IMG/VR virus record: IMGVR_UViG_3300042268_000478
Location: 42,925 to 106,924 of that record
Direction: 5' to 3' (one strand)
Length of the DNA stretch: 64,000 nt
Origin: a virus
Lineage: Duplodnaviria > Caudoviricetes
Below, piece by piece: positions 17,705-46,582 of this stretch. The position numbers were made by a program, and so were the translations under genes. The notes beneath the pieces were generated by a model. The model ran no database searches. It was not told the DNA's origin and worked only from the letters and a program-made list of their open reading frames with translations. The stretch's first letter is position 1. Every line of letters begins with the position of its first letter.

Positions 17705-17710
17705 ATCCCC

Positions 17711-18858: not shown

Positions 18859-18868
18859 GAGGTAGCCA

Positions 18869-19653: not shown

Positions 19654-20416
19654 CCGCAACCACAGCCCTACAGAAATAACGCCACACACCGCCAACGTTC
19701 GCCTCAACGTGCGATTATATCCACGGCTCGGCATCGGCCTATAGCCGACCAAAATAATAACGCGACAAATCGCCACAGCTCTGCGAATCTCGGCAAGGTC
19801 AACAATCTCCCAATAACTTTGTAATAAAGTGGTTGCTATAATCTAAACCCACGCCATTGTACGCACATCGAGACCCGCCAGCAGCCCGCAACACCGACAG
19901 CGGAGCAACCCCGTGCCGGCCGGGGGATATAAATTGTCGGCCCTTTCTATTGTTGAACTTTCTCCTCGACCACTGGTCGGCGGTTCGTTGTGTTAATTTA
20001 AGAAAGCAGTTTTATTATATACGAACTGCAACATCCCTTGGATTTGAGGCTGATTTTGATAAATAGAGAAAATTCGATGCTTTAAAAATATCGAGTAAAG
20101 ATCGGATTTATTTATCGACCTTTGCTTTTTCAAAGAGATTTATTGAAATTTTAGTCTGTTTCGCACATGTTCTTTCTTAAGTACTTATTCTCTAAGTAGT
20201 TAGCTGTAAATGTAAAAGTAAAGGACGGCGACCTTTACTCAACGGAGAATTTGCGGGGATTTGGCTTGCGGATGGCAGATGAACACGGATTTGGAGATTC
20301 TCTGCTGGCTTGATTGCGAGAGAATGAAACTTCGCTAAGTCTTTACTGTCAGGCAGATATGTGACTTGTTTGCCTGTGTCGATTCCAATGGACTGGACGG
20401 CAGAGAATGAAAAAAA

Positions 20417-29790: not shown

Positions 29791-30069
29791 ATGAGTACCA
29801 ACTCGGAACTTAAAAAGGGAGTCGTCAGATGGTTCAGTCCCAGCAGGGGCTACGGATTCATTGACAGCAAGCAAGGTGACGTTTTCGTCCACTATTCAGC
29901 AATCAGCACAAAGGGCTATAGAGAGTTGCAGAGCGGCGATGTTGTACAATACACCTCTCAACCCACGGAAAAGGGCTTGATGGCTTTAACGGTCTTCCCT
30001 GCCCCTTCACGCAAGGCATCCTCCGCTAAATACTCACGCCGTAGACAATGGAGACGTAAAAATGCCTAA
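29791..30069 (+). CDS. Cold-shock domain protein with Arg-rich tail
   Basis: GVVRWF…GYGFI (RNP1), DVFVHYSAI (RNP2); C-terminal SRRRQWRRK. Confidence 0.9.
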   Translation: MSTNSELKKGVVRWFSPSRGYGFIDSKQGDVFVHYSAISTKGYRELQSGDVVQYTSQPTEKGLMALTVFPAPSRKASSAKYSRRRQWRRKNA

Positions 30070-30661
30070 TCCAAGAATTGAAATTGATGTTCCTGATGGA
30101 GTCTCTGGAAACTGGCAGGTCAGCAGCTTTGAAGTTTCTGAAAAAGACGCTTCTTGGTTTAATCTGGGGCAAGCGATCAAAGGGACACGCAGAAATATTG
30201 TAGCTGGCAAATACAAGAGAATTTGCAGAAACGGCAGGGTGATAATGTCTAATACTCCTGCCGAAATAGCCGACCATATGAAGTTCATTCTTACCGCCAA
30301 ACAGGAAGGCGGTCACATCTTGATAAATGGGCTCGGTCTTGGTGTAGCACTCAAAGAAATATTGACCAGCGAAAAGGTGAAATCCGTTACTGTCGTAGAA
30401 AAGTCAAAGGACGTGATCGCTCTGGTTGCCTCAACATACCTGAAAGATAGCAGGGTAAAAATCATCGAAGCAGATGCTTATGATTACACGCCACCGGCTG
30501 AAATTAAATACAGTGCGGTATGGCATGACATTTGGGACGATATTAGCTCGCAGAATCTTCCAGAAATGGCAAAATTGCGGAGAAAATACTCCAAGTTCGC
30601 AGACTGGCAGGGTTCCTGGGCTGAGAATGAATGCCGTAGACAAAAGAGACGTGGCTATTAG
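30062..30661 (+). CDS. Spermidine-synthase-like class I SAM-dependent transferase
   Basis: ILINGLGLG, VTVVEKS, ADAY, WHDIW. Confidence 0.8.
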   Translation: MPNPRIEIDVPDGVSGNWQVSSFEVSEKDASWFNLGQAIKGTRRNIVAGKYKRICRNGRVIMSNTPAEIADHMKFILTAKQEGGHILINGLGLGVALKEILTSEKVKSVTVVEKSKDVIALVASTYLKDSRVKIIEADAYDYTPPAEIKYSAVWHDIWDDISSQNLPEMAKLRRKYSKFADWQGSWAENECRRQKRRGY

Positions 30662-30672
30662 GAGAATACATC

Positions 30673-31146
30673 ATGTCTTCCAGCTATGAAACCAGAGAGA
30701 ATTTGCGGGATGCTAACCGTGCTCTACGAAAAACCATCAACGAAAAAAACATTGAAATACTTAAACTTAGAAAGGAGCTTGAGATTTATATGCAGGAGCA
30801 ATTAAAACAACTGGATTCATTCAAACAGGTATTCAATTCCTTCCAAATGAAAATCCATGAAAACGCCAAGGATAAAGGCTGGCACGAACAGGAACCAAGA
30901 AACAACGGGGAGCTTATCGCTCTCTGCCACAGTGAGCTTTCCGAAGCCTTGGAATACCTGCGTCACGACAATCCGAAAAGTGACCATATTCCAGAATTCA
31001 CTGGAGTAGAGGAAGAACTTGCAGATGTCATTATCCGTATCATGGATATGGCGCAATTGAGAGGTTGGGATATCGCAGGCGCGATGATTGCCAAGCACGA
31101 GTTTAACCGCATAAGATCACACCGGCACGGCGGTAAGCAGTTTTAA
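30673..31146 (+). CDS. MazG-like nucleotide pyrophosphohydrolase
   Basis: LCHSELSEALE…EEELADVIIRIMD. Confidence 0.85.
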   Translation: MSSSYETRENLRDANRALRKTINEKNIEILKLRKELEIYMQEQLKQLDSFKQVFNSFQMKIHENAKDKGWHEQEPRNNGELIALCHSELSEALEYLRHDNPKSDHIPEFTGVEEELADVIIRIMDMAQLRGWDIAGAMIAKHEFNRIRSHRHGGKQF

Positions 31147-33589: not shown

Positions 33590-33802
33590 ATGAAACTTTT
33601 TATAAACAAGAATAGTTCCTCGGAGCTTATAGAATGGCTCAAGGCAGTTTGTGAGTACATAGAGGATGATGCAAATAACCTTACGGCAGGAAACTTGTCG
33701 CATCATCGTCCATCTATCAGATGGAAAGCAACCAGGATGAAGCAAGTCTTAGATGCCTTGCCTGATAAAATTAAGCAGGAAAAAGAAAAGGAAGATAAAT
33801 AA
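33590..33802 (+). CDS. Hypothetical protein
   Basis: GGAGG SD. Confidence 0.55.
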   Translation: MKLFINKNSSSELIEWLKAVCEYIEDDANNLTAGNLSHHRPSIRWKATRMKQVLDALPDKIKQEKEKEDK

Positions 33803-34674
33803 TGCTATACGAAAAATCTACTTGGTGGGATGAAGCCTGGAACCCAGTCTGGGGATGCACTCCAGTCAGTGAAGAGTGCGAACACTGTTATGCGAAGTCT
33901 CTTGTTGAGACTCGATTTGCAAATAATCCTCTTGCGCCGGTGCATGATTTCAACGTAAAAATTGTTGAGAAGCAGTTCAATAAGCGTTTCAAGAAGAGTT
34001 CTAAGCGGATTTTTATCTGCAACATGAGTGACCTTTTTCATGAGCAAGTGCCGTTTGAAGTAGTTGACCGAGTGCTAGCACGAGTAGCCCAAGACCAAGA
34101 ACGGCAGTATTTTATTCTGACCAAGCGTGAAAAGCGAATGGCTGAGTATTTCAGCTACCATGACACTTGCTTGAGAGTGGCGAACGAAGCAAAAATCAGA
34201 CCTCACAAATTACTCGAACGCTGGCCATTAAAAAATCTTTGGCTTGGGGTAACTGCCGGTAATCAAAAGAATCTGGATTTAAGAGTTCCATACCTCCTAA
34301 AAACTGGCTGGTCTAATTTGTTTGTAAGTATTGAGCCAATGCTTGAAGATGCAAATCTAAAATATGAATGGTTTGAAACTGACAACGAGAAAGAGTGTCC
34401 AAACAAAAACCTTACTCTCCACAGAAAAATACATCTATGTCCTAAGTGTGCACCGAAAACGTCCGGTGGAATTGGCTGGATTATTTTTGGAGCTGAATCC
34501 GGTTCAGATCGGAGACGTTGTGAAAATCAATGGATAACCAACGGAGTAAAGATGTGCAAATCAGCAAACATTCCCGTATTCGTCAAGCAGTTAGACATTA
34601 ATGGTAAACTTGTTAAGGATATTTACAAGTTCCCTGAGCTCTTGAGAATAAGAGAATTTCCCGAAATGTCGTAA
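33802..34674 (+). CDS. DUF5131 (Gp37Gp68, radical-SAM-like) protein
   Basis: WNPVWGCTPVSEECEHCYA, MSDLFHE, ILTKR, SIEPML, GAESG, FVKQL. Confidence 0.9.
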   Translation: MLYEKSTWWDEAWNPVWGCTPVSEECEHCYAKSLVETRFANNPLAPVHDFNVKIVEKQFNKRFKKSSKRIFICNMSDLFHEQVPFEVVDRVLARVAQDQERQYFILTKREKRMAEYFSYHDTCLRVANEAKIRPHKLLERWPLKNLWLGVTAGNQKNLDLRVPYLLKTGWSNLFVSIEPMLEDANLKYEWFETDNEKECPNKNLTLHRKIHLCPKCAPKTSGGIGWIIFGAESGSDRRRCENQWITNGVKMCKSANIPVFVKQLDINGKLVKDIYKFPELLRIREFPEMS

Positions 34675-36220: not shown

Positions 36221-36988
36221 ATGGCGACCAGAAAAACAAGTGCTCGGGCTAAAAACAAAAAAGCCACAGAAAAGACGGTCAAGAAAGCTGTGCTTCAAAT
36301 CAAAGAATATGACATTGAGTATCTTCTTGCCTGTAAGGCTAAGTACAATCCGAGAAAAATCTCTGGAGAACAGCAGGCTGGCTTACGCCTTTCCATGACC
36401 AAGTTTGGCTATGTCCAGAACATTATCTTCAACGAAAAGACCGAAACTGTAGTATCGGGTCATCAAAGGCTTGATATTCTTCATGCGGAAGGTTATGAGC
36501 GCGTTGAAGTGCATGTCGTTAATCTTTCCGAAGAGCAGGAGAAGCAGCTTAATGTTGCAATGAATGCCTCGACGATTTCCGGGGATTTTACTGCCGGAAT
36601 TAACGAAATGATCGAAGACATTCTCAAGGAAGACCCGGAGCTTTATGACTTGGCAAACCTTGGGTCGCTTATGGTGCTTGATGAAGACGAAGAAAAGCCT
36701 GAAAAGAAAAATGATGACAAGGAAGGCGTACCGGGGATGGACCTGCTGCCATACGAACACTATGACTGCATGCTGGTGGTGTTCAAAAACGTTGACGACT
36801 ATCTATACCTCAGCAGCGCGCTCGGACTGGATGAAAAGCGGGTCATATCAGCCCCGATGGTCAAAAACAAACGTCTCGGGAAAGTGCGAGCCGTAGCAGC
36901 GGATAAACTGCTTGCGCTGATCGAAGGCGGCAATGAGGGCGCGATCGACATCATACTTGACGATCTTGAAGATATTAAGGGGTTGTGA
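36221..36988 (+). CDS. ParB/Sulfiredoxin-like N-terminal domain protein
   Basis: YNPRKI…SMTKFGYVQNII…VVSGHQRL…EKQLNVAMN. Confidence 0.85.
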   Translation: MATRKTSARAKNKKATEKTVKKAVLQIKEYDIEYLLACKAKYNPRKISGEQQAGLRLSMTKFGYVQNIIFNEKTETVVSGHQRLDILHAEGYERVEVHVVNLSEEQEKQLNVAMNASTISGDFTAGINEMIEDILKEDPELYDLANLGSLMVLDEDEEKPEKKNDDKEGVPGMDLLPYEHYDCMLVVFKNVDDYLYLSSALGLDEKRVISAPMVKNKRLGKVRAVAADKLLALIEGGNEGAIDIILDDLEDIKGL

Positions 36989-36989
36989 T

Positions 36990-37769
36990 ATGGCTGGTGA
37001 AGTAAAAACATTCGATGATTATTCCGGCAGGGATTATCTCACCATTATCCCATCCAAGGGCAGACCCGACAGAGTGGCTAAGGTGCAGAAGGTGTTTCCT
37101 AATGCCGTCATGTACATAAACGCCAGTGAGCTCGAAAGCTATGCCCCGAACTGCGACATTCCTATCATACTCCATAATGAGACCATGGGCTATGGTAGTG
37201 TCATGAATAGCATCTTCCGTGAATGCACCAAGGCGAATATCAGGTACAGTGTTGTGTTTGACGACGATGTTGAATCATTCGATTCTCTTGTCGGCAACCG
37301 CCCTCGCAAACTAACCGTCGAACAGACGGAAGAGGCGATTGTTAATGCTTGCCAGATACTGGAAGACTTGGACGCTTACATCTATCTGTTCAGTACATGT
37401 TCTTCGTGCGTAAAATACCAGCAGTCGGAGCCGTTTAAGATTGGGTTCAGTTTATCACAAGGGGCTTGGGTGTTGAGAAACGATAAGATGGGCAGGTTCA
37501 AACTCGGAATGCACCACTACGAAGATTTTGATTTCTGTATGGATTACGTCTTGAAGCACCGGTACATGGTTATAGAAAACCGGTTTCAGGCAGTATCAAA
37601 AGGCGCATACGAAGCCGGTGGCTGCAATTCGTTCAGAACCTCGGAAAACGAAAAATCTAGCATGGAATACATCAGGAAAAAGTGGAAGGGCAATGTCGCC
37701 TTCGTGGTGAATCAGGGTGGCACGATTCGCCCTACTGCCAAAATAAACAGGCAGCAAAGAAGGAAATAA
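36990..37769 (+). CDS. GT-A fold glycosyltransferase (TET/JBP-associated, GREB1-like type)
   Basis: IIPSKGRP, FDDD, EDFDF, GGC..FR. Confidence 0.8.
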   Translation: MAGEVKTFDDYSGRDYLTIIPSKGRPDRVAKVQKVFPNAVMYINASELESYAPNCDIPIILHNETMGYGSVMNSIFRECTKANIRYSVVFDDDVESFDSLVGNRPRKLTVEQTEEAIVNACQILEDLDAYIYLFSTCSSCVKYQQSEPFKIGFSLSQGAWVLRNDKMGRFKLGMHHYEDFDFCMDYVLKHRYMVIENRFQAVSKGAYEAGGCNSFRTSENEKSSMEYIRKKWKGNVAFVVNQGGTIRPTAKINRQQRRK

Positions 37770-37894
37770 TAAAAAAAGATTTTTTTTTATTTTAAGATTG
37801 GAAATACAAAATCATAAGATTATGATAACGCTATAGTAATCAACAACTTACATAAAGTTGTTAAACAAAAAAACCACAAGGGAGCACGAGAAAG

Positions 37895-38083
37895 ATGAGT
37901 AACATGAGCTATTGCAGATTTAGGAACACCGAAACTGACCTCGAAGACTGCTACGCAAGTATGGAAAATGGAGACGAACTGTCACACGAAGAAGCCGAGG
38001 CAAGGAAAAGACTTATTGAGCGATGTGTTGATATCGCTCTTGACTATGGGCATGAAGTTGGCAGAGCAGTTGAGGAAGTATAA
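37895..38083 (+). CDS. Small phage protein (MSNMSYCRFRNT)
   Basis: GGAG SD; motif typical of phage proteins. Confidence 0.65.
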   Translation: MSNMSYCRFRNTETDLEDCYASMENGDELSHEEAEARKRLIERCVDIALDYGHEVGRAVEEV

Positions 38084-38140
38084 AAATAACCATTGTAAAC
38101 TAAAAGCAAGACTAACCACAAACCGAAAGGAAAAAACCAC

Positions 38141-38764
38141 ATGAGCAACCCGATGAAACAACCGACCCCAAGAGGGTACAATCCGTATGAACTGATGTCC
38201 GCTATGCAGAAGTTTGTTCGCCGCAGTATGGAGCGCGAAGCCCTGTTTTGCTTCTATGAGCTTGAAGCAGCCGGACTTTACTATGCAGCCGCATCCCGTC
38301 TCACAGTCATTGTTTACGAAGACTGCGGCATGGCGAACCCGGCCTTGCTTAACTCCATTCAGGGGCATATGGAGCAGATGGCTAAATGGTGGAAGGCTAA
38401 CAACGGCGCATGGCGGCTTGTGCTAGGCAACATTATCCTGCAAGCCTGTCGCGGCAAGAAGACCAGAATTGCCGACCACTTCGTTTGCTCCATGATGGGA
38501 GCTATGGTGAACGGCTACAAGGTTGACCTTGAGCAGTACAGCGAGTTCGTCTTTGATATGCATACTCGACAGGGCAAGCAAATGGGGCGCGGGCTAGACC
38601 ACTTCTTTGAGCACGGCATGACGATTATCGAAAGCACAGAAACCACTGATTATGCCAATGATGAAATGCGCGAACTTCTCAAGGCTGAAAAGATCAGTGA
38701 TGACATTTCCGAAGATTATAAAAAAGACCCGCGAAACCTCGCAAAACAAGGAGACCTTTTTTGA
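38141..38764 (+). CDS. MgsA/RarA C-terminal-like helical protein (no ATPase domain)
   Basis: SAMQKFVRRS…RL..IVYEDCG.ANP…DMHT..G..MGRG..HF. Confidence 0.7.
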   Translation: MSNPMKQPTPRGYNPYELMSAMQKFVRRSMEREALFCFYELEAAGLYYAAASRLTVIVYEDCGMANPALLNSIQGHMEQMAKWWKANNGAWRLVLGNIILQACRGKKTRIADHFVCSMMGAMVNGYKVDLEQYSEFVFDMHTRQGKQMGRGLDHFFEHGMTIIESTETTDYANDEMRELLKAEKISDDISEDYKKDPRNLAKQGDLF

Positions 38765-39441
38765 ACTCGAAAACTGTTCATATATCACAACCAAGGATTT
38801 ATCCGCATTTGTCTTATTTGGAGAAAATAGCAAGTGCGGATTTATTTGTCGTTCTGGATGATTTAATGCTTAAGCCGGAGCTTTTCGAGCGGCGCAATCG
38901 CTACTACTGCTTCAACGCCGGAGAACCGCGCTTTCTTACCATTCCTACCGAAAAAAAAAGGCAGCACCGGCATTTGAAAATCACCGACTTGGATTTTGCC
39001 AAGAAGCACCGGCGCATACTTAAAGACAACTACTGGAAACGCACAGCCCGCTTTGATGAAGACATTCTCAATGAAATTGTTTTCGACCCGGCTAATGAAT
39101 CCTTTCTCGAATACTACACCGAATCATTAGCCCGTACAATGAAGCTCCTTGGCTTTCACACTGAAATCGCTTTATCATCCCAAGTTGCCAGCCCAAACGT
39201 CAAAACAGAGCGCCTTAATGATATTCTACGCTATCATCAGGCAGATACCTACCTGTCGGGCGCATGTGGAGCCGAATACATGGGCGAAGACTGCTGTGTG
39301 CCGGTTGTCTTCCGTAGGCACGAGGAAGAAGTGAGCCGCTTCCACTCCAACAGCAATACTGACATGATGCTTATGTTTATCGACACACTTTTTGATAAAG
39401 GACTGGAATTCACAAAAGGACTGTTGCATAAAAATGATTGA
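38761..39441 (+). CDS. WbqC-family protein (putative glycyl/aminoacyl transferase)
   Basis: ISQP…PHLSYLEKIASADLFVVLDD…RNR…LTIP…YLSG..G..Y; TTG start with AAGGAG SD. Confidence 0.8.
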   Translation: MNSKTVHISQPRIYPHLSYLEKIASADLFVVLDDLMLKPELFERRNRYYCFNAGEPRFLTIPTEKKRQHRHLKITDLDFAKKHRRILKDNYWKRTARFDEDILNEIVFDPANESFLEYYTESLARTMKLLGFHTEIALSSQVASPNVKTERLNDILRYHQADTYLSGACGAEYMGEDCCVPVVFRRHEEEVSRFHSNSNTDMMLMFIDTLFDKGLEFTKGLLHKND

Positions 39442-40057
39442 TACTTTGATTATAGCTGCTCACGACGACGATGAGGCCTTGATGGCTGGTGGATACATTG
39501 CGAAGTATGCCAGCCAAAAGGAAATCGTTGTATGTGTTGTTATCGGCTGCACCGATGACCAGAAAGCAGCTTCCGCAAAAAACGCAGAAGCATTCGGCTA
39601 CACGATTGAGCCCATTTATGAAAAGCAATTCGCAACCCCGCTTCACGTCCTTGCGGCAAAGATTAATCAGGTCATTTTAAAGCACCGTCCTCAGACCATT
39701 ATCACACACACTTATTTCGATACCCATCAGGAACACAAGCTGGTTCACGATGCCGTTGAGATTGCCACGCGGGCTATTGATATGAGAGAGGCAGGGGGTG
39801 GGCACTTTGTCCCGAATATTTTACTTGGGCTCGGCACCGGCTTGTATGAAAACTCTATAACTTTAACCAGACCGCAGTGCTTTGTCGGGCTCTCCCGGAA
39901 AGAAGTCAATCGTAAGGTGGATATGATGAATCGCTACGGTCTTGAAATGAAGGGAATCAGAAGCAGGATCGGTGCTATCACCGATGCTAGGTTTTGGGGC
40001 AAGATGAACGGGACGCAATTCGCCGAGGCGTTTATTGCTAAAAGGATAGCCGTGTAG
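39434..40057 (+). CDS. PIG-L/LmbE-family N-acetylhexosamine deacetylase
   Basis: AHDDDE…GG, ITH…DTHQEH, AEAF. Confidence 0.85.
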   Translation: MIDTLIIAAHDDDEALMAGGYIAKYASQKEIVVCVVIGCTDDQKAASAKNAEAFGYTIEPIYEKQFATPLHVLAAKINQVILKHRPQTIITHTYFDTHQEHKLVHDAVEIATRAIDMREAGGGHFVPNILLGLGTGLYENSITLTRPQCFVGLSRKEVNRKVDMMNRYGLEMKGIRSRIGAITDARFWGKMNGTQFAEAFIAKRIAV

Positions 40058-40130: not shown

Positions 40131-40502
40131 ATGAGCAAATCTGACGAAAAAAAGCCAGAGGAAAAAAATCCAGGCGGTAGACCCAAAAAAGAAATCAACT
40201 ATGATACCGTTGAAAAGCTCGCACGGATTATGTGCACTCAGGAAGAGATTGCTGCCGTTCTTGACATAAGCGTGAGGACATTACAGAGAGATGAGGAGTT
40301 TTGTCGCATATATAAAAAGGGACAGGAACTTGGCAAGGCAAGCCTTCGCCGCTCTCAATATAATCTTGCCATGAGCGGCAATGCCACGATGCTGGTCTGG
40401 CTTGGCAAACAACTCCTTGACCAATCGGACAAACAAACCCACGAAGTTGACGTTACTCAGCCCATTGTGCTAAAAGTAGACGAAGATGACGCAAAAGCCT
40501 AA
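40131..40502 (+). CDS. terS: Terminase small subunit
   Basis: GGRPKK…CTQEEIAAVLDISVRTL…SLRR.Q…MLVWLGKQ. Confidence 0.85.
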   Translation: MSKSDEKKPEEKNPGGRPKKEINYDTVEKLARIMCTQEEIAAVLDISVRTLQRDEEFCRIYKKGQELGKASLRRSQYNLAMSGNATMLVWLGKQLLDQSDKQTHEVDVTQPIVLKVDEDDAKA

Positions 40503-41757
40503 ATTCAAAAAGACCCAAGACCAGATTCAGGCGGTAAAACTCATGATTGGCAGTGCGGTGCATGTGCTACTGTTCGGCGGCTCCCGCTCTGGCAAAACAT
40601 TTATTATTATCCGGCAGATTCTTTTAAGGGCGATAAAAGCCCCCGGCTCCAGACACTGTATCCTGCGCAAAACCCAAACTGATATTAGAAAAAGTATCTG
40701 GCTTGATACCTTGCCAAAAGTGCTTGAATTGTGCTTTCCCGGCGTTCCGATCAAGAAGAACGAAGCGTATCTGAGGATTATCCTGCCGAACAAGTCCGAA
40801 ATATGGCTCGGGGGCTTGGATAAAACAGATAAAATCCTCGGTAACGAGTACGCCACGATGTACTTTAATGAAATCTCTGAAATCTCATACGAGCAGGTTG
40901 AAACGGCACATTCCCGACTTGCCCAAAAGTGCCCGGAACTCGTGAACAAGTTCTTCTACGACTGCAACCCGCCGAGCAAGTCACACTGGAGCTATAAGGT
41001 TTTCAATCAGAAAGTGAATCCGGTGGAGAACACGCCTCTCCCAAGACCGGAGCTCTATACTTATATGCGCCTGAACCCAGACGGCAACAAGGAAAACCTT
41101 GCAGACGGATACATTGAAACAACCCTTGAGGGTATGTCCGAACGCAAAAAGAAACGTTTCCTGCGTGGCGAATGGGCAGACGACAACGAAAATGCTCTCT
41201 GGAAACGTGATAGCATGATTAATCCGTTCAGGGTAAAAAGCCTGCCTCCAGATTTGGAACGTATCGTGGTAGCTGTAGACCCTGCCGTCACGAGCAAGGA
41301 AACTTCCGACCATACCGGCATTGTGATAGCTGGCTCCAAGCGTTTCAACGGCGAAAAGCATTACTATGTGCTAGATGATCGCTCCCTGATAGGCACTCCG
41401 AAAGAATGGGCAAGCACAACGGTAAACGCCTATCGTGAATATTTTGCTGATCGTGTCGTTGCTGAGGTGAATCAAGGTGGTGATCTGGTTGAAGCCACGT
41501 TAAGGAACATTGATAAGAGTATCAGTTACCGTGGTGTCCGTGCTTCAAGAGGAAAAATCCTGCGAGCGGAGCCGATTGCTGAACTTTACGAACGTGGTTT
41601 AGTTCACCATGTCGGCTCGTTTCCGCTGCTGGAAGATGAAATGTGCTCGTATTGTGGTTTCGATAACGAGCAGTCCCCCGACAGGCTTGACGCTCTGGTT
41701 TGGGCTCTCACAGAACTCTCGCACCGTGCCGGAGGCTTTAGGGCTATACTGGCTTAA
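40486..41757 (+). CDS. terL: Terminase large subunit
   Basis: GGSRSGKT, YFNE, DCNP, VAVDPA, DRLDALVWA. Confidence 0.95.
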   Translation: MTQKPKFKKTQDQIQAVKLMIGSAVHVLLFGGSRSGKTFIIIRQILLRAIKAPGSRHCILRKTQTDIRKSIWLDTLPKVLELCFPGVPIKKNEAYLRIILPNKSEIWLGGLDKTDKILGNEYATMYFNEISEISYEQVETAHSRLAQKCPELVNKFFYDCNPPSKSHWSYKVFNQKVNPVENTPLPRPELYTYMRLNPDGNKENLADGYIETTLEGMSERKKKRFLRGEWADDNENALWKRDSMINPFRVKSLPPDLERIVVAVDPAVTSKETSDHTGIVIAGSKRFNGEKHYYVLDDRSLIGTPKEWASTTVNAYREYFADRVVAEVNQGGDLVEATLRNIDKSISYRGVRASRGKILRAEPIAELYERGLVHHVGSFPLLEDEMCSYCGFDNEQSPDRLDALVWALTELSHRAGGFRAILA

Positions 41758-42140
41758 TATTGACTTGGAAATATAACTTGCTGATATATTTCATATTGCC
41801 TCAGCCATTCCATCTCTTTAGGACTAAAGTCTAAATCATCATAATTTTCAATAGCAATGGATTCGCATTTTGATATAATACGTTCCAAGTCATGAACCAT
41901 TTTTTTATATTTTATTTGAGTTTCAACCTGTTCGAACTTATCACCGTCGAGCATACAATTAATGTTTGCCATTAAAGACTTAGCATCAACATAAATCTCT
42001 TCCACATCATCAAAATGATCTACAATGCTAATAGCTGCATCTACATTTTCTTTTGCGCGACGCAATTCAGACGCTTTTGCTACTATCTGATTGTATTCTT
42101 GTATGTATTTCTTGTATTTTCCCTGATTTACTCTTGGCAT
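41754..42140 (-). CDS. Hypothetical protein (moron)
   Basis: AT-rich, GAGGA SD, downstream of the AbiTii gene. Confidence 0.6.
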   Translation of the reverse strand: MPRVNQGKYKKYIQEYNQIVAKASELRRAKENVDAAISIVDHFDDVEEIYVDAKSLMANINCMLDGDKFEQVETQIKYKKMVHDLERIISKCESIAIENYDDLDFSPKEMEWLRQYEIYQQVIFPSQY

Positions 42141-42180
42141 TTTTATATCCTCTAGGTTATTTTGAGTATATTATTCTAAA

Positions 42181-43074
42181 TTATGAAGGAATACCATAAT
42201 AAAAAGAGATTGCTTTTGTAAGTAATGCCCCTGCAGTGTCAATTCCGATATTCCAAATGCCGGAAGCAGATTTACCAACCATTTCCCCAATCCATCTGCC
42301 AACTTTCGAGCCGAAATGCTCAGTACTTACTGGTTTTGGGTCTTCCTCAATACACTGCTTCAGATTTGCAATATCGTCGTTGGAAATACCATTTGATTTC
42401 AGATAATTTGATAACGATTCAAAGTTATTCTTCTTGATATCCATAGTCAAATTCTGATTGACAGTACTGTTTTTTATATCTCCGAGATTACCTTGAAAAT
42501 TCCCGCCAATATTAATATTAGTAGTCATATGTGTTGCTAGCTCTTTTTCTTCTTGCGAAAACGACATTCCTTCTCCAGTTATTCCTTGCTCTTCTAATTC
42601 TAGAGACCAATTTAAAATTTTATTTCGTACAGTGCTAACAATGCACATCAGTACATTCGGAGCCACTGAAAACCGAACTTTCATTGGATATGTTTGCTGG
42701 CTAATCAAATATTTTTCCATTTCTGCAGGAAATGTCATTTGTAAACAACCATCTTTATATTTTGATAACTCATCAAGATTCTCAATGGGATCGTGAACTT
42801 TTCTTATTTTGAAAATATTTGCAGACTCTTCATCTTCAAAAAAAAATGGAATCCAACCATTATATGGGTTAAAGGCTTCGACTTGTCCGTGAACAGTACG
42901 ATATTCTGGAATAAGCGATATATCGCTATATCCATTAAGCTCATTGTTTATCCATTCTCGATAAGAATCAATTTTAAGTTTACGAGAAATAACAAGAGCT
43001 TTTTTTAGTAAGTTCCCAGCCGTGACATTATTATCAAGTGCATCCCGTTGTAATTCTGAAACTAGACCTTCCAT
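42181..43074 (-). CDS. AbiTii-domain protein (putative anti-phage)
   Basis: ELQRDAL…LLKKALVISRKL…WINNELNGY…PEYR.V.G…NPYNGWIP; start at 43074 after GGAG. Confidence 0.8.
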   Translation of the reverse strand: MEGLVSELQRDALDNNVTAGNLLKKALVISRKLKIDSYREWINNELNGYSDISLIPEYRTVHGQVEAFNPYNGWIPFFFEDEESANIFKIRKVHDPIENLDELSKYKDGCLQMTFPAEMEKYLISQQTYPMKVRFSVAPNVLMCIVSTVRNKILNWSLELEEQGITGEGMSFSQEEKELATHMTTNINIGGNFQGNLGDIKNSTVNQNLTMDIKKNNFESLSNYLKSNGISNDDIANLKQCIEEDPKPVSTEHFGSKVGRWIGEMVGKSASGIWNIGIDTAGALLTKAISFYYGIPS

Positions 43075-43164
43075 GCAACTCTCCAATGTTCGTTTATTAT
43101 TGGTTAAGCTATCACTAACGTTTATTGTTATCAACTCAAAATGAAGCGGGAAGTATAAATTTTT

Positions 43165-43212
43165 AAATAATTTACTAAATTAACTTGACAACGGTAAATA
43201 TAAAAGTAGGTT
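43165..43212 (+). promoter_or_regulatory. Early-type promoter with operator box
   Basis: 23-bp identity with 27243-27265; TTGACA-16-TAGGTT. Confidence 0.65.
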
Positions 43213-43270
43213 CTAATTATAAACTAAATTTACTAACACCAAGTAAACAAAAAACACAAGGAGCTGTAAG

Positions 43271-43648
43271 ATGAGTACAAAGAGTGAAAAAATTGAAGTC
43301 GTAGCAAAACAAATCAAGAGAGCGGAGTTTCGCTTGAATGAAATAAGTGAATGGGCAGCGGAAAATTTTGGAAATGCCATTAATGCCTATGCAAGTTCCT
43401 ATTTTGAATTACAAAGGTACTTAAAGCATCTCAAAAGCTTGCATTCAGTCCTGGATACAGAAGTTGAAGAACCAAACACAAATGAAATTCTAACTGGCAT
43501 GATTGACAGTGAAATATCTTACATAACTTCCGAAATATTCAGCGTGAGAACCGATCCATGCGGTCAACTTGAATCAAAAGGATACGTTCAGTTGGTTCGC
43601 AAAGGCGGCACTCTCGAAACCTTAAAAGACCTTTTAGAACTCAATTAA
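43271..43648 (+). CDS. Hypothetical protein
   Basis: AAGGAG SD. Confidence 0.65.
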   Translation: MSTKSEKIEVVAKQIKRAEFRLNEISEWAAENFGNAINAYASSYFELQRYLKHLKSLHSVLDTEVEEPNTNEILTGMIDSEISYITSEIFSVRTDPCGQLESKGYVQLVRKGGTLETLKDLLELN

Positions 43649-43679
43649 TCATAAAAACCACAACAGAAAGGGAACCAAG

Positions 43680-43973
43680 ATGGAACACCGGCACGAAGTA
43701 GCATTCAAAATCGACAAAAGCACAATCTTAGGCGAAGACTTCAAAGCCACCGTACGTGAAATGGTGCGCATGACGACAATCAACGATTTTATGAGCAAGC
43801 GGCATGGCAAAAAAGTAGAAATGCAGTACACCCCAACGGTTAACTTCCTCTATGATATCGCAAGAGAAGCAATACACGACCAGATAGGTGACGTTCTGGC
43901 AGAAATGGAAGAAGAAGACCCTGTCGAAATCTACAAATCAATGGTCGCAGAATTCGAAAACAAACCACAATAA
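43680..43973 (+). CDS. Hypothetical protein
   Basis: ORF preceded by AACCACA leader. Confidence 0.6.
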   Translation: MEHRHEVAFKIDKSTILGEDFKATVREMVRMTTINDFMSKRHGKKVEMQYTPTVNFLYDIAREAIHDQIGDVLAEMEEEDPVEIYKSMVAEFENKPQ

Positions 43974-44019
43974 CCCAAATAACCACAATTCAAATCCACA
44001 GAAACAAGGAGTATTCCAA

Positions 44020-44445
44020 ATGTCTACTAGATCAACTATTGCAATCCATGAGAATGATAAAATCAGAGCAATCTATTGCCACTTTGACGGCTATCTTCAT
44101 GGGGTCGGCTCAACTCTTCATAATCATTATAACACCGAAGAGAAAGTAAAAGAACTCATAGAGCTTGGAGACCTGAGCTCTCTTTCTGAAAATGTAAAAC
44201 CCCGAGAAGGCACACCCCACTCATTCGACAAGCCACAAAAGGGCGTAACAGTTGCTTATATGAGAGATCGCGGAGAGAGCGAAGTAGAACCAAATGAATA
44301 CTCTAGCCGAGAAGAATTGTTTGAAGCAGCAAATAGCTGTTATGGAGCCGAATTTGTTTATCTCTTTGAGAACGGGGAGTGGATTTATAGACAGGTTTAC
44401 GACGAACAGGAAGAAGGCTGGCAAGTTGTCGCAGAAGAACTTTAA
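44020..44445 (+). CDS. Conserved phage protein (MSTRS…IYCHxDGY family)
   Basis: MSTRSTI…IYCHFDGY..GVG..L..HY…LGDLSSL…YLF..GEW. Confidence 0.75.
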   Translation: MSTRSTIAIHENDKIRAIYCHFDGYLHGVGSTLHNHYNTEEKVKELIELGDLSSLSENVKPREGTPHSFDKPQKGVTVAYMRDRGESEVEPNEYSSREELFEAANSCYGAEFVYLFENGEWIYRQVYDEQEEGWQVVAEEL

Positions 44446-44489
44446 GTAAAAAAAATAACCACACAATAGCCACAAAAGGAGCAACCACA

Positions 44490-44852
44490 ATGACCACAAT
44501 CAAAGGACTGCTGATTGACCCCGCAAAAAGGACGATCAACGAAGTAGAACTAGAAGAGAAAAATGACAGCTACCTGAGCGACATGCGCCGTCTTTTGGGC
44601 TGCAGCACTGTTGATGTAGCTAGAGAACAAATTGCCGGAATCAACCTTGATATATGGGTTGATGACGAAGGGGCTTTCAAGAGCCCTGAGTATTTCTTCC
44701 ATCTTCCAAATTATCCAGAATGGCTGTGCGGAAAAGGCTTGGTGCTAGGCAATGACGACTTGGGCAACTGCATTTCCCACGGTCTGACCCAGGAGCAAAT
44801 CGAAGCCTTCGCCCAAAGCGTAAAGCTCGGAACCAGAAGAAAGGATATATGA
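44490..44852 (+). CDS. DUF3846-like protein
   Basis: LLIDP…IWVDDEG…G.GLVLG. Confidence 0.7.
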   Translation: MTTIKGLLIDPAKRTINEVELEEKNDSYLSDMRRLLGCSTVDVAREQIAGINLDIWVDDEGAFKSPEYFFHLPNYPEWLCGKGLVLGNDDLGNCISHGLTQEQIEAFAQSVKLGTRRKDI

Positions 44853-45304
44853 TCATGAATTTGAATGATATGAACGAAAAGCAGTTAAGACAATACAAGA
44901 CTCCTGTCGTTGAAAGCATAGAGGAGCTTGCAACAATAATTAATTCGCTTGCGAACAGAAAACACGATTATGGAACCTGTGTCTATGCCATGAGCATTGC
45001 TGCACATGCTACATTCAGGTATATCGCAAATCATCTTGGCGTAACTGGTTTTCAGGCAAGCTGTGCAGACCTTGATTTTCTTCGCAGAACGAGAAATATA
45101 GATGCTTTCAAAATCGTTGACTACAGCAAGGTTCTATACCCGCAGTATCATGATGAAATCAATAACATCTGCGTTGATAAAATCATTGCTGAAAATAAAG
45201 ATTATTTTCGTGCAGAATGCAAGAGACTCCTGAAAAACCCAGAACATGCGTCTGCAAACGTGATCGCCAACTGGAAAGCAGTACTAAAAAAATGCGGAGA
45301 CTGA
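44849..45304 (+). CDS. Hypothetical phage protein
   Basis: HDYGTCVYA…GVTGFQASC…LYPQY pattern. Confidence 0.65.
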   Translation: MIMNLNDMNEKQLRQYKTPVVESIEELATIINSLANRKHDYGTCVYAMSIAAHATFRYIANHLGVTGFQASCADLDFLRRTRNIDAFKIVDYSKVLYPQYHDEINNICVDKIIAENKDYFRAECKRLLKNPEHASANVIANWKAVLKKCGD

Positions 45305-45307
45305 AAG

Positions 45308-45517
45308 ATGCAAACCAAAACCTTAGCAGAACTTAGAGCTGAATTTGAAAAAATGGCTATTGAAAAAATGTATATGCTTGGAAGAGAAGTATGCGGTGTA
45401 TATGACTCTCCTGTAACACAACAGTTCTGGTGTGGCTATTGGCAATGCGCTAAGAAATACGGAGTAATTGTTGGAAAAGATGCAAACGTGCAAAATATGA
45501 ATAAATGGGAGGAATAA
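45308..45517 (+). CDS. Hypothetical protein
   Basis: ORF in operon. Confidence 0.55.
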   Translation: MQTKTLAELRAEFEKMAIEKMYMLGREVCGVYDSPVTQQFWCGYWQCAKKYGVIVGKDANVQNMNKWEE

Positions 45518-45798
45518 CCATGCCTATCTGTAACCGCAACCATTCCCCTATAGTCCACAACAAAATGATCTGTCCACTTTGCAGGGCTATCAACGATTGC
45601 CTAGAGGCTAACAAACAGATAATTGCTATTGCCGTTGAAGCTGTCCACTGGAGACGGGAATTTAAAGATGCTTGCCCAGATGTTGGATGGGGAGAGTCCT
45701 TGGAAACGTCAATTGATAAAGTCACAGAAGCAGCAGGAGCTTTCATTGACACAAATAAGCTCGTTGAAGCGTATAAACTTAAATACGGGAAAAGATGA
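45505..45798 (+). CDS. Hypothetical protein
   Basis: ORF in operon; the internal ATG at 45520 has a GGAGG SD. Confidence 0.55.
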   Translation: MGGITMPICNRNHSPIVHNKMICPLCRAINDCLEANKQIIAIAVEAVHWRREFKDACPDVGWGESLETSIDKVTEAAGAFIDTNKLVEAYKLKYGKR

Positions 45799-46217
45799 TC
45801 ATGATATACAAAGGGACACGAGGAAAGCCAGTCAAAACGCTTGAGCACTTGCAGGAGCTTGCTGAAAACCGCAAGTCGATTATTATAAACCATTGGGTCA
45901 AATCGAGCGTCCTTCCAGCCAAGTCTATTCTCTATCGCCAGTGTGCGGATGTCATAAGCCTTTTAAAGAGCGATAGGTTGTTTGAATACATCAAGCCTAC
46001 TCCACACCCCAAACAGAAAACAACGAGGTTGTACGGGCGTAAAAAGGGCAAAAAAGAAGACCCCCGTATCGAACTCAGCCAGCAGGACATAAAAGACATG
46101 CTACAATTGCTTAATGACATCCCGAACAGTTCCCCCGGCCACAACGATTATCGGTTCAAGAACACATATGCGATCTGCTCTTTTTTGAGAGGAAAGCTTA
46201 GAGAGCTGGAGGGCTAG
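45795..46217 (+). CDS. Hypothetical protein
   Basis: ORF in operon. Confidence 0.55.
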   Translation: MIMIYKGTRGKPVKTLEHLQELAENRKSIIINHWVKSSVLPAKSILYRQCADVISLLKSDRLFEYIKPTPHPKQKTTRLYGRKKGKKEDPRIELSQQDIKDMLQLLNDIPNSSPGHNDYRFKNTYAICSFLRGKLRELEG

Positions 46218-46221
46218 CACA

Positions 46222-46491
46222 ATGCTTTGCAACGTTTGCGGCGAGGACAAGCCAAAGAGCAAGTTCTACAAGCACTATCACAAGTGCAAAACCGGCACCT
46301 GCATCCTGTGTTTTCGGGAAAAGCAAAACAAGACTTACAATAGAGCCAGTACTCCCCCTATGTCTCATGAAGACATACGTGACTGGAACAGGCAGCACCC
46401 GTTCGACAAGGCAATACTCCGAGGCATGGTCTACAGCCTCAGAAACATGCGTATGAATTCCCCTGAAGGTAGAGCATCTAAGTTATTTTGA
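46222..46491 (+). CDS. Zn-finger protein
   Basis: CNVCGEDKPKSKFY…CILC. Confidence 0.6.
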   Translation: MLCNVCGEDKPKSKFYKHYHKCKTGTCILCFREKQNKTYNRASTPPMSHEDIRDWNRQHPFDKAILRGMVYSLRNMRMNSPEGRASKLF

Positions 46492-46525
46492 ATTTCAGGA
46501 TATAGTTGGAAACACCAATTTAATA

Positions 46526-46554
46526 TTGAAATTTTGCTCCTGCTTAATTATATT
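46526..46554 (+). promoter_or_regulatory. Sigma70-like moron promoter
   Basis: TTGAAA-17-TATATT. Confidence 0.55.
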
Positions 46555-46582
46555 AACGCAAATATAAAGCAGGAGTTTTATT

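What the first reader, a model, noticed from the sequence alone, without database searches (positions are those of the whole stretch)
36221..40057. ParB-glycosyltransferase-MgsA_C-like-WbqC-PIG-L cluster before terS: candidate new aminoacyl-aminosugar DNA (or virion) hypermodification
Seen: five enzyme-like genes, interrupted only by one 62-aa ORF, immediately upstream of the terminase. Known: ParB-like genes with TET/JBP-associated GT-A glycosyltransferases near terminases mark predicted packaging-linked DNA modification loci. PIG-L enzymes de-N-acetylate HexNAc. WbqC/WbnG proteins are implicated in adding glycine to amino sugars in O-antigen synthesis. Inference: the GT adds HexNAc, PIG-L unmasks the amine and WbqC aminoacylates it, the same three-step logic as mycothiol/bacillithiol synthesis but on phage DNA or capsid. 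I recognised no TET, methylase or hydroxymethylase in the window, so the acceptor is unknown, which is itself novel.
Basis: partly seen in the sequence, partly recalled or inferred. Interest (0 to 1): 0.82.

Follow-up and report, generated by a model that had tools for sequence, protein, structure and literature searches.

The report
Phage ParB-glycosyltransferase amino-sugar tailoring cassette
A prophage carries, just before its DNA-packaging genes, a conserved five-gene set that most likely attaches an amino sugar to the phage's own DNA and then links an amino acid to it; the enzymes are well supported, but the target is unproven and no known enzyme for preparing the DNA base is present.

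Summary
Five co-directional genes lie at 36221-40057, directly upstream of terS/terL:
- a short ParB-like protein
- a TAGT-family GT-A glycosyltransferase
- a stand-alone MgsA/RarA C-terminal-like protein
- a WbqC-family protein
- a PIG-L/LmbE deacetylase

A sixth ORF of 62 aa is not conserved.

These five families, and no sixth, are shared by all 11 non-redundant related loci. They occur in three gene orders, and ten of the eleven loci place them directly before one of at least three terminase lineages. ParB is always immediately upstream of the GT.

The WbqC model (pLDDT 95) matches BshC best (Z 13.8), followed by class I aminoacyl-tRNA synthetases. BshC is the cysteine-adding enzyme of bacillithiol synthesis.

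More distant phages keep only ParB + TAGT + MgsA_C-like. That trio is therefore the core, and WbqC and PIG-L are lineage-specific tailoring enzymes.

No Pfam Tet_JBP or thymidylate-synthase homologue was found, so the acceptor is unknown. DNA is the favoured target on indirect grounds only.

This scan has flagged the same module on other DNA before (e1-3753884, e1-726490, e1-5835411, e1-5679563). I found no publication describing it.

Verdict: a real, undescribed variant of phage glyco-hypermodification clusters. Interest 0.68.

The parts
36221..36988 (+). Short ParB-like protein (255 aa). It has an N-terminal ParB/Srx-type nucleotide-binding domain with an invariant G80-H81-Q82-R83, an acidic linker, and a conserved C-terminal domain (invariant P177-Y178-E179, Y181-D182). 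No HTH DNA-binding domain was recognised.
   Evidence: PHROG ParB-like families and the ParB N-terminus of phage DNA methylases. Alignment A3 of 11 cassette homologues, 51-60% identical. The ESM Atlas model resembles the N-terminal roughly 250 aa of viral ParB_N-N6_N4_Mtase fusions, TM 0.58 over residues 15-254. It lies immediately upstream of the GT in all three gene orders.
36990..37769 (+). TAGT-family GT-A glycosyltransferase (259 aa from the ATG at 36990). The motifs R25, D91-D92-D93 and E178-D179-F180 form the R...DDD...EDY/F signature.
   Evidence: PF20691 above its cut-off and phrog_842. Alignment A2 gives the invariant residues. AF2 model pLDDT 86. The best BFVD matches are phage TAGT-domain proteins, TM 0.7-0.77, including a T-even 'beta-glucosyl-HMC-alpha-glucosyl-transferase'. 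The PDB shows a generic GT-A fold, Z 12-13. The motif is described for DNA-acting phage GT-A enzymes and JGT in bioRxiv 10.1101/2023.12.21.572611.
37895..38083 (+). 62-aa acidic ORF that follows an AT-rich gap containing a promoter-like site. It is not part of the conserved cassette and is probably an inserted small gene.
   Evidence: phrog_8760, unknown function. No tblastn match in any related locus. A promoter-like TTGGAA-17-TATGAT lies at 37798-37826; the gap sequence is shown.
38141..38764 (+). Stand-alone MgsA/RarA C-terminal-like protein (207 aa) with no AAA+ ATPase module. It carries many invariant polar residues: Q23 K24 R27 R28 E31 E33 R53 E60 D61 W91 R92 C103 R104 R109 D112 D139 H141 T142 R150 H154.
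   Evidence: phmmer against PDB 2r9g, 8g28 and 3pvs, all C-terminal regions of MgsA-family proteins. Alignment A4. The Atlas places it among stand-alone MgsA_C clusters, mostly viral. It is the most conserved cassette protein, 50-69% identity across phage backgrounds.
38761..39441 (+). WbqC-family protein (226 aa; the TTG start overlaps the upstream stop codon). It has a HUP / class I aaRS-like fold closest to BshC and is the predicted ligase that acylates the sugar amine.
   Evidence: PF08889, 2.9e-24. AF2 model pLDDT 95.3. Foldseek top hit is BshC 4wbd, prob 0.99. VIA-align gives BshC Z 13.8, class I LysRS 11.1, GluRS about 8.5 and MshC 6.5. Invariant Q10 and R45, and a conserved N-terminal QP motif, show that the 207-aa database gene call is too short.
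39434..40057 (+). PIG-L/LmbE-family zinc de-N-acetylase (207 aa from the ATG at 39434, which overlaps the WbqC stop by 8 nt). Motifs A-H10-x-D12-D13-E and H98-x-x-H101.
   Evidence: PF02585, 3.4e-12. Weak NCBIfam matches to BshB1 and MshB. Alignment A5 shows H10, D12, D13 and H101 invariant in 11 cassettes.
40131..41757 (+). terS (40131-40502) and terL (40486-41757). These packaging genes are the context, and the cassette directly precedes them.
   Evidence: phrog_309 and phrog_979; Terminase_6N/3/6C. No convincing terminator lies between PIG-L and terS.

Best explanation
This is a late-expressed, self-contained phage cassette for post-replicative glyco-modification of the phage's own DNA.

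Proposed mechanism:
1. The core is a trio. The TAGT-family GT-A enzyme transfers a hexosamine-type sugar, most simply GlcNAc or GalNAc from a UDP-sugar, onto DNA.
2. A short ParB-like protein lacking an HTH domain helps it. I propose it acts as the cognate activator or DNA-access factor, as shown for ParB-dependent phage thymine dioxygenases.
3. A stand-alone RarA/MgsA C-terminal-like protein also belongs to the core. Its role is unknown; it may be an oligomeric or DNA-structure-binding adaptor.
4. In the sublineage that includes this prophage, two tailoring enzymes follow. The PIG-L/LmbE deacetylase removes the N-acetyl group. The WbqC protein, a BshC-like member of the class I aaRS fold, then acylates the freed amine with an amino acid or another activated carboxylate. 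The product would be an aminoacyl-hexosaminyl adduct.

Shown here: the gene content, family and fold assignments, intact catalytic motifs, strict co-occurrence, and linkage to ParB and terminase.
Inferred: the donor sugar, the acyl group, the order of steps and DNA as the target.
Unknown: the acceptor atom on DNA. No recognisable 5mYOX/TET, thymidylate-synthase-type hydroxymethylase or any sixth conserved gene accompanies the cassette.
For: 1. Functional unit. Exactly five families are shared by 11 of 11 non-redundant loci. They occur in three gene orders and in phages with different capsid, portal and terminase types.
2. GT. It scores above the Pfam TAGT cut-off. Its nearest predicted structures are phage TAGT proteins, including the T-even enzyme that acts on glucosyl-hmC DNA (PMC13390438). 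It carries the R...DDD...EDY/F motif shared by DNA-acting phage GT-A enzymes and JGT. One 5mYOX-cluster GT (GT14-II) was shown to add Glc or GlcNAc to 5hmC (PMC8256090).
3. ParB. It has the short NBD+CTD architecture described for the ParB activators of phage T-dioxygenases, which are needed on dsDNA (PMC13229309). It resembles the N-terminal module of viral ParB-DNA-methylase fusions. It is always adjacent to the GT.
4. Position. The cassette lies directly upstream of terS/terL in 10 of 11 loci, and the minimal trio in L025 precedes a lambda-type terminase. Terminase and ParB are among the commonest neighbours of phage DNA-hypermodification genes.
5. Tailoring logic. The PIG-L catalytic and zinc motifs are invariant. 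The WbqC model's best match is BshC, Z 13.8. Genetics places BshC immediately after the LmbE-type deacetylase BshB (PMC5790435). WbqC-GNAT fusions parallel MshC/MshD.
6. All cassette proteins lack hydrophobic segments, with a maximum KD19 of about 1.1, so they are cytoplasmic.
Against: - There is no direct evidence that DNA is modified.
- The usual acceptor-making enzymes are absent. No Pfam Tet_JBP and no thymidylate-synthase homologue occur in the 106.9-kb record. No Tet_JBP occurs in five related trio-bearing records. No sixth conserved gene exists. No chemistry is known for glycosylating unmodified DNA.
- Against solved structures the GT fold is generic GT-A. Teichoic-acid, protein and glycan HexNAc-transferases tie at the top.
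- By recollection, not checked here, the animal TAGT-like GREB1 domain glycosylates a protein.
- The MgsA_C-like protein also occurs alone, at 57% identity, in non-phage mobile elements without a GT or ParB.
- BshC's own reaction has never been reconstituted, so the ligase chemistry of the fold is itself inferred.
Confidence: 0.5

Rival explanations
1. The cassette glycosylates a protein, not DNA. Candidates include a virion or packaging protein (terminase, portal, capsid), the cassette's own ParB-like or MgsA_C-like protein, or a host DNA-metabolism protein. The attached HexNAc would then be remodelled to an aminoacyl-hexosamine.
For: Against the PDB the GT is a generic GT-A enzyme, and protein- and glycan-directed HexNAc transferases (POMGNT1, GnT-I, GalNAc-Ts) tie at the top, Z 12.5-13.2. 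No acceptor-making DNA enzyme is present. The cassette sits beside the morphogenesis genes. By recollection (a lead from note e1-5841985, not checked here), the TAGT-like domain of animal GREB1 O-GlcNAcylates a protein.
Against: The universal partners are a ParB-like protein and a RarA C-terminal-like protein, both from DNA-handling families. The ParB type is the one fused to DNA methylases and shown to activate DNA dioxygenases. The closest predicted structures are phage TAGT proteins, not protein glycosyltransferases. The capsid, portal and terminase families differ among cassette-bearing phages, so no common structural-protein target is evident.
Confidence: 0.2
2. The cassette makes or modifies a soluble metabolite or a cytoplasmic envelope-glycan precursor. 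Possibilities are a bacillithiol/mycothiol-like aminoacyl-glucosaminide, or prophage-driven surface-glycan conversion like TarP. ParB and MgsA_C-like would then be unrelated neighbours.
For: GT, then LmbE deacetylase, then BshC-like enzyme is exactly the enzyme logic of bacillithiol synthesis. WbqC is named after O-antigen clusters (Pfam description). The prophage enzyme TarP is among the tied top PDB matches, Z 12.7, and is the top PDB hit reported for phage GT-A enzymes.
Against: ParB-like and MgsA_C-like are present in 11 of 11 cassettes despite gene-order shuffling, with ParB always abutting the GT. Distant phages keep ParB + GT + MgsA_C-like and drop the two 'thiol-pathway' enzymes. The GT is GT-A/TAGT, not the GT-B (GT4) type of BshA/MshA. 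None of the proteins has a membrane segment. The position before the terminase is that of a late lytic gene, not of a lysogenic-conversion gene with its own promoter.
Confidence: 0.13
3. The acceptor is an ordinary 5-hydroxymethylpyrimidine after all. It would be made by a dioxygenase too divergent for Pfam Tet_JBP, encoded elsewhere in the phage or host. The locus would then be a standard 5mYOX-GT pathway with unusual tailoring.
For: O'Toole et al. report that thousands of contigs retrieved with phage-specific 5mYOX profiles lack the Pfam TET/JBP annotation. The Tet_JBP search rang in none of the 14 control genomes, so its sensitivity was not demonstrated here. Several prophage ORFs of about 200-240 aa remain unannotated.
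Against: No family beyond the five is shared among 11 cassette loci, and none beyond the trio among 10 more diverse loci, within 5-10 kb flanks. In described pathways the 5mYOX clusters with its ParB and GT. The unannotated ORFs of this prophage have no counterparts in the other phage backgrounds.
Confidence: 0.1

Closest known systems
Post-replicative phage DNA hypermodification clusters: 5mYOX (TET/JBP), with or without C5-MTase, plus GT-A/GT-B glycosyltransferases and ParB (Burke et al. 2021, PMC8256090; bioRxiv 10.1101/2023.12.21.572611; O'Toole et al. 2026, PMC13229309)
   Same: It has a TAGT/JGT-like GT-A enzyme with the R...DDD...EDY/F motif. It has a short ParB (NBD+CTD, no HTH) next to the modifying enzyme. 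It lies close to the terminase. Extra tailoring enzymes are attached to the cluster.
   Different: There is no 5mYOX, C5-MTase or thymidylate-synthase homologue in or near the cassette. ParB is paired with the GT itself, not with a dioxygenase. A RarA C-terminal-like protein is an obligatory third member. The LmbE deacetylase plus BshC-like WbqC tailoring pair is not mentioned in these papers.
T2/T6 beta-glucosyl-HMC-alpha-glucosyltransferase (TAGT family) and trypanosome base-J glucosyltransferase JGT
   Same: It belongs to the same Pfam/PHROG family or fold and has the same active-site motifs.
   Different: Those enzymes need a pre-formed acceptor: glucosyl-hmC or hmU. They use UDP-glucose, work without ParB, and their product is not remodelled further.
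Bacillithiol (BshA-BshB-BshC) and mycothiol (MshA-MshB-MshC-MshD) biosynthesis
   Same: The chemical logic has the same three steps: a glycosyltransferase adds GlcNAc, an LmbE/PIG-L zinc deacetylase frees the amine, and a class I aaRS-fold enzyme adds an amino acid. The WbqC model's best structural match is BshC (Z 13.8), and MshC is also listed (Z 6.5).
   Different: The GT is GT-A/TAGT, not GT-B (GT4). WbqC has 226 aa, lacks BshC's coiled-coil domain, and has no detectable sequence similarity to it. The context is a phage late operon with ParB, not thiol metabolism. The amino acid is unknown.
ParB-like partners of other DNA-modifying enzymes: viral ParB_N-N6/N4 methylase fusions, and DpdB with DpdA (the second from my own knowledge)
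   Same: A ParB/Srx-fold module is physically or genetically coupled to an enzyme that must reach a base in duplex DNA. The window's protein resembles the N-terminal part of the methylase fusions.
   Different: The partner here is a glycosyltransferase. Nucleotide binding and hydrolysis were not tested.
WbqC proteins of bacterial O-antigen clusters (Pfam PF08889)
   Same: Family membership is clear (86.6 bits). Bacterial members are fused to GNAT acetyltransferases.
   Different: No WbqC has a published biochemical activity that I could find. The phage proteins form a divergent group: only 5 of 2149 representative hits reach E <= 1e-30.

Membership tests
TAGT glycosyltransferase (PF20691) / DNA-acting phage GT-A | Pfam score above the gathering threshold | tested here: met
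   36.8 bits against a cut-off of 27.5, covering profile positions 4-205 of 205.
TAGT glycosyltransferase (PF20691) / DNA-acting phage GT-A | GT-A fold with the R...DDD...EDY/F active-site motifs | tested here: met
   AF2 model pLDDT 86. GT-A matches at Z 12-13. Phage TAGT proteins at TM 0.7-0.77. R25, D91-93 and E178-D179-F180 are invariant or nearly so. The motif is defined in the preprint read.
TAGT glycosyltransferase (PF20691) / DNA-acting phage GT-A | Transfers sugar to a base or a sugar on DNA | not testable with these tools
   This needs an enzyme assay or nucleoside mass spectrometry.
5mYOX/TET-GT-ParB hypermodification cluster | A 5-methylpyrimidine dioxygenase (or a ThyS-type hydroxymethylase) that makes the acceptor | tested here: not met
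   No PF12851 and no PF00303 match in the 106.9-kb record. No PF12851 match in five trio-bearing records. No sixth conserved family. Caveat: the PF12851 controls rang nowhere, and Pfam misses some phage 5mYOX enzymes.
5mYOX-associated short ParB (O'Toole et al. 2026) | ParB N-terminal nucleotide-binding domain plus a C-terminal domain, without the central HTH DNA-binding domain | tested here: inconclusive
   PHROG ParB families match residues 23-167. The GHQR motif and a conserved C-terminal domain are present. No HTH family hit. However, there was no direct comparison with the published ParB176 sequence, and the Atlas model is poor (pLDDT 0.61). The homologue in L021 scores 23.6 bits on ParB_N, below the 26.3 cut-off.
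PIG-L / LmbE deacetylase (PF02585) | Pfam score above threshold, with the zinc and catalytic motifs AHxDDE and HxxH | tested here: met
   47.4 bits against 28.2. H10, D12, D13 and H101 are invariant and H98 is nearly so in 11 cassette homologues.
WbqC family (PF08889) | Pfam score above threshold | tested here: met
   86.6 bits against 21.3. 2149 representative relatives at E <= 0.001.
BshC (bacillithiol cysteine-adding enzyme) | Sequence family membership and the full architecture (Rossmann core plus coiled-coil dimerisation domain, about 540 aa) | tested here: not met
   No PDB sequence match at E <= 1. The protein has 226 aa against 540. Only the catalytic-core fold is shared: Z 13.8, rmsd 3.0, 212 residues aligned. 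It therefore plausibly works like BshC but is not a BshC.
RarA/MgsA replication-associated recombination protein | AAA+ ATPase module preceding the MgsA_C domain | tested here: not met
   The protein has 207 aa and aligns only to residues 239-380 of the 426-aa chain 8g28. There is no AAA hit. The window's protein itself has no PF12002 hit at E <= 0.01, but the homologue in L025 passes PF12002, 34.8 bits against 27.

The most novel reading that the evidence does not exclude
The ParB + TAGT + MgsA_C-like trio glycosylates DNA that carries no pre-oxidised pyrimidine. The sugar would go directly onto a canonical base, or onto the DNA ends or structures created during packaging. This sublineage then converts the sugar into an aminoacyl-hexosamine. 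That would be the first DNA glycosylation pathway independent of 5hm/5ho-pyrimidines, and the first amino-acid-bearing sugar on DNA.
Probability: 0.2. Interest if true: 0.9.

Novelty: new variant of a known kind. Interest (0 to 1): 0.68.

Why it matters
Phage DNA hypermodifications determine sensitivity to restriction, CRISPR and type IV systems, and they supply enzymes for DNA labelling and sequencing chemistry. All sugar modifications described so far start from 5-hydroxymethyl- or 5-hydroxy-pyrimidines.

A 2023 preprint notes that about two thirds of mined phage GT contigs lack any such enzyme and leaves them unexplained. This cassette gives that orphan class a concrete, compact and testable form:
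- a three-gene core (ParB, TAGT, RarA-C-like)
- in this lineage, two tailoring enzymes whose folds predict an aminoacyl-amino-sugar product.

If DNA is the target, this extends ParB-dependent activation from dioxygenases to glycosyltransferases and adds a new chemical class of DNA adduct. Whatever the target, it would also give the first functional context for the uncharacterised WbqC family and a tractable relative of BshC, whose reaction has never been reconstituted.

Tried and rejected
- blastn of the locus and tblastn of the GT against 50,697 phage records found nothing. tblastn of the MgsA_C-like protein gave only distant hits. One is a full-length RarA in an unverified Enterococcus phage contig. 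Another is a lone MgsA_C-like gene in a 4.8-kb faecal contig without a GT or ParB. No cultured phage with the cassette was found. I could not confirm the lead in note e1-5782478, about cultured phages with restriction-resistant DNA, for this GT.
- A single-sequence WbqC pattern scan of viral contigs found no relative.
- Sequencing runs: only wastewater and bioreactor metagenomes, kept as contigs. No RNA holder is listed and no raw reads are held, so neither expression nor modification-dependent read errors could be examined.
- The Tet_JBP Pfam search rang in none of the control genomes, so its negative result is weak.
- The methyltransferase-like gene at 30062-30661 was considered as a cassette accessory. 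It was rejected because it is not similar to the extra SAM-MT-like gene inside the L021 cassette and is absent from the other loci.
- DUF5131 (33802-34674, radical-SAM-pair-like) was considered as an acceptor-making enzyme. It was rejected because only a fragment is present in L003 and it is absent from the other cassette loci.
- The promoter/terminator scan was at background level and is not used as evidence beyond 'no obvious terminator before terS'.
- Literature searches for WbqC biochemistry and for LmbE + ParB + glycosyltransferase + phage returned nothing relevant. Iyer et al. 2013 could not be retrieved.
- The genome-contig scan found the GT in only one GTDB species genome, a Victivallaceae MAG that is the same record as L003.

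Full report
**Setting**

The window is the last 64 kb of a 106,924-bp IMG/VR virus record. GC content falls from about 0.52 to about 0.40 near 20 kb, and a tyrosine integrase starts at 20596. From about 20 kb on, the window therefore holds a temperate phage. Its genes include:
- replication genes: a PD-(D/E)XK/DUF2800 nuclease, a replication initiator, an AAA_5 ATPase, DUF7192, SSB
- the cassette studied here, followed by terS/terL
- an inserted AbiTii/SLATT island
- SPP1-type portal, scaffold, SU10-type capsid and tail genes.

The nearest relatives are prophages in Victivallaceae MAGs. Runs holding the sequence are wastewater and bioreactor metagenomes.

**Observation**

| Gene | Coordinates | Evidence |
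|---|---|---|
| ParB-like | 36221-36988 | Pfam misses it; three PHROG ParB families and the ParB N-terminus of a phage DNA-methylase family match at 1e-21 to 1e-24 |
| GT | 36990-37769 | Passes the Pfam TAGT threshold; matches the PHROG of the T-even beta-glucosyl-HMC-alpha-glucosyltransferase |
| MgsA_C-like (207 aa) | 38141-38764 | Aligns over about 150 residues to the C-terminal region of three solved MgsA/RarA-family proteins |
| WbqC | 38761-39441 | Passes Pfam threshold comfortably |
| PIG-L | 39434-40057 | Passes Pfam threshold comfortably |

Start codons were refined by comparison with homologues: GT from the ATG at 36990, PIG-L from the ATG at 39434, and WbqC from the TTG at 38761. 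The conserved N-terminal strand and QP motif of WbqC require this upstream start. With these starts the genes abut or overlap by a few bases. The exception is an AT-rich 125-nt gap with a promoter-like site before the 62-aa ORF.

**Is it a unit?**

Homologues of WbqC, the GT and the MgsA_C-like protein were traced to their contigs. Eleven non-redundant loci were compared by all-against-all BLASTP of every ORF.
- Exactly five families occur in all eleven, and nothing else is shared by more than the closely related Victivallaceae prophages.
- Three gene orders exist:
 - ParB-GT-MgsAC-WbqC-PIGL
 - PIGL-ParB-GT-MgsAC-WbqC
 - MgsAC-PIGL-WbqC-ParB-GT
- ParB is always immediately upstream of the GT.
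- Ten of the eleven loci place the cassette directly before terS/terL, although the terminase, portal and capsid families differ.
- One variant (L021) has an extra SAM-methyltransferase-like gene inserted between the GT and MgsAC.
- The 62-aa ORF of the window is not conserved.

**Core and add-ons**

ParB, the GT and the MgsA_C-like protein are 41-69% identical across the cassette-bearing phage backgrounds. WbqC and PIG-L drop to 20-37%.

A profile scan with the MgsA_C-like alignment recovered more distant IMG/VR phages at 31-40% identity.
- In seven independent loci the MgsA_C-like gene lies within about 3 kb of a TAGT-like GT, and in six of them also a ParB-like gene; in the seventh (L032) the contig ends inside the GT.
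- Five of these records (20-58 kb) have no PIG-L, WbqC or Tet_JBP match in six-frame Pfam searches.
- In L025 the bare trio sits directly before a lambda-type gpA terminase and portal.

ParB + TAGT + MgsA_C-like is therefore the ancestral core, and WbqC + PIG-L is a tailoring pair acquired by the sublineage containing this prophage. This agrees with what an earlier follow-up in this scan concluded from different DNA (note e1-3753884). I reached it independently from this window.

The MgsA_C-like protein can also stand alone. It occurs at 57% identity, beside an AAA/S8-peptidase pair, an HNH protein and serine recombinases, with no GT or ParB nearby.

**The enzymes**

- GT. The model (pLDDT 86) is a GT-A fold. 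Its nearest predicted viral structures are TAGT-domain proteins at TM 0.70-0.77. Its invariant R25, D91-D93 and E178-D179-F180 correspond to the R...DDD...EDY/F motif reported for 5mYOX-associated phage GT-A enzymes and trypanosome JGT.
- PIG-L. It keeps the LmbE zinc/catalytic motifs AHxDDE and HxxH in all eleven homologues.
- WbqC. The model is very confident (pLDDT 95.3). By two methods its best match in the PDB is BshC: Foldseek probability 0.99, and VIA-align Z 13.8 at rmsd 3.0 over 212 of 226 residues. Class I LysRS (Z 11.1), GluRS (about 8.5), CysRS and MshC (6.5) follow.
- What BshC does. It is the enzyme genetically required to add cysteine to GlcN-malate, after the GT BshA and the LmbE-type deacetylase BshB. 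Its reaction has not been reconstituted (PMC5790435).
- Fusions. Bacterial WbqC proteins fused to GNAT acetyltransferases recall the MshC-MshD succession.

The donor sugar, the acyl group and the order of steps remain inferences.

**Target**

The arguments for DNA are indirect but consistent.
- The GT family's characterised members act on DNA: T2/T6 TAGT adds the second glucose to glucosyl-hmC and JGT acts on hmU. Separately, a 5mYOX-cluster GT adds Glc or GlcNAc to 5hmC.
- The invariant neighbour is a short ParB. ParB modules are fused to phage DNA methylases. O'Toole et al. showed that a short ParB with NBD and CTD but no DNA-binding domain is required for a phage thymine dioxygenase to act on duplex DNA. 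In their survey GT, ParB and terminase are the commonest neighbours.
- The third core protein derives from a replication and recombination factor.
- All cassette proteins are soluble.

The argument against DNA is the missing acceptor.
- No Tet_JBP or thymidylate-synthase homologue was found.
- The C5-methylases of the record lie upstream of the window, beyond the higher-GC stretch that precedes the integrase.
- No sixth conserved gene exists.
- The Tet_JBP search could not be validated on controls, and Pfam misses some phage 5mYOX enzymes, so a cryptic dioxygenase is kept as a rival at low probability.
- The authors of the GT survey found that about 65% of GT contigs lack a 5mYOX/ThyS neighbour and treated them as less obviously DNA-related. 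This cassette is a well-defined member of that unexplained majority.

**Rivals**

- A protein target. It is favoured by the generic GT-A matches and the recalled GREB1 precedent.
- A small-molecule or envelope-precursor target. It is favoured by the bacillithiol logic and the TarP similarity.

Neither can be excluded. Both fail to explain why ParB and the RarA-C-like protein are the most conserved and inseparable partners, or why distant phages keep those and drop the sugar-tailoring enzymes.

**Novelty**

No paper in the searchable library links WbqC, LmbE/PIG-L, MgsA_C and TAGT/ParB in phages. No cultured phage in the 2025 INPHARED set has this GT. The scan itself has noted the same or sister modules several times on other genomes, so this is a recurrent, still undescribed system and not a one-off.

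I class it as a new variant of a known kind, namely ParB-linked phage glyco-hypermodification. It would become categorically new if canonical DNA turns out to be the acceptor.

**Limits**

There is no experimental or read-level evidence of modification. Only two structures could be predicted, so the ParB C-terminal domain and the MgsA_C-like protein rest on sequence matches and Atlas look-alikes.

Noticed in passing
window 17920-19653: An Amidoligase_2 gene (312 aa, 1.5e-51) is followed by two gamma-glutamyl-cyclotransferase-like (GGACT/AIG2) genes. They lie at the end of the higher-GC stretch (window 1-20000) that precedes the integrase. This may be a peptide- or amine-ligation system of unknown target.
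   Followed up: no
window 1-20000 and G000:C1:1-62900: The IMG/VR record does not look like one phage. The stretch upstream of the integrase at 20596 has a GC of about 0.52 and holds large, mostly unannotated + strand genes. Two adjacent C5-cytosine methylases (C1:12741-14739) and a 620-aa C5-MTase-containing ORF (C1:35801-37420) lie upstream of the window, outside the prophage studied here.
   Followed up: partly
L008:4362-9738, also L009 and L010: A MgsA_C-like gene 57% identical to the phage one stands alone in a mobile element, with no GT or ParB. It is flanked by large serine recombinases, next to an AAA ATPase + 824-aa S8 peptidase pair, an HNH_5 protein and an unannotated 258-aa gene. 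This may be a defence-island context that hints at a second role for this protein.
   Followed up: partly
window 33802-34674: A DUF5131 (phage Gp37/Gp68) protein shows a weak match to the 'radical SAM mobile pair protein A' model. It lies 1.5 kb upstream of the cassette. Only a fragment is present in one relative (L003), and it is not part of the conserved set.
   Followed up: partly
window 41754-47269: terL and the portal gene are separated by a 5.5-kb insertion. It carries a leftward AbiTii-domain gene (42181-43134) and a SLATT_5 two-TM effector gene (46583-47269), so defence-type morons sit inside the packaging module.
   Followed up: no
window 54107-54259: Two adjacent tRNA genes, Met-CAT and Gly-TCC, lie inside the late structural region of the prophage.
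   Followed up: no
window 30062-31146: A SAM-methyltransferase-like gene (phrog_15480, with weak similarity to polyamine aminopropyltransferases) is followed directly by a MazG-type pyrophosphatase (phrog_3301). This nucleotide or polyamine-related pair has an unknown role and is not conserved in relatives.
   Followed up: partly
L021:4667-5305: One distant cassette variant has a 212-aa gene with weak spermine-synthase/SAM-MT similarity inserted between the GT and the MgsA_C-like gene. This suggests further tailoring, by methylation or aminopropylation, in some lineages.
   Followed up: partly
L036:4611-5900: In a distant trio-bearing phage, a DNA polymerase III beta-clamp homologue lies immediately upstream of the MgsA_C-like gene.
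   Followed up: no
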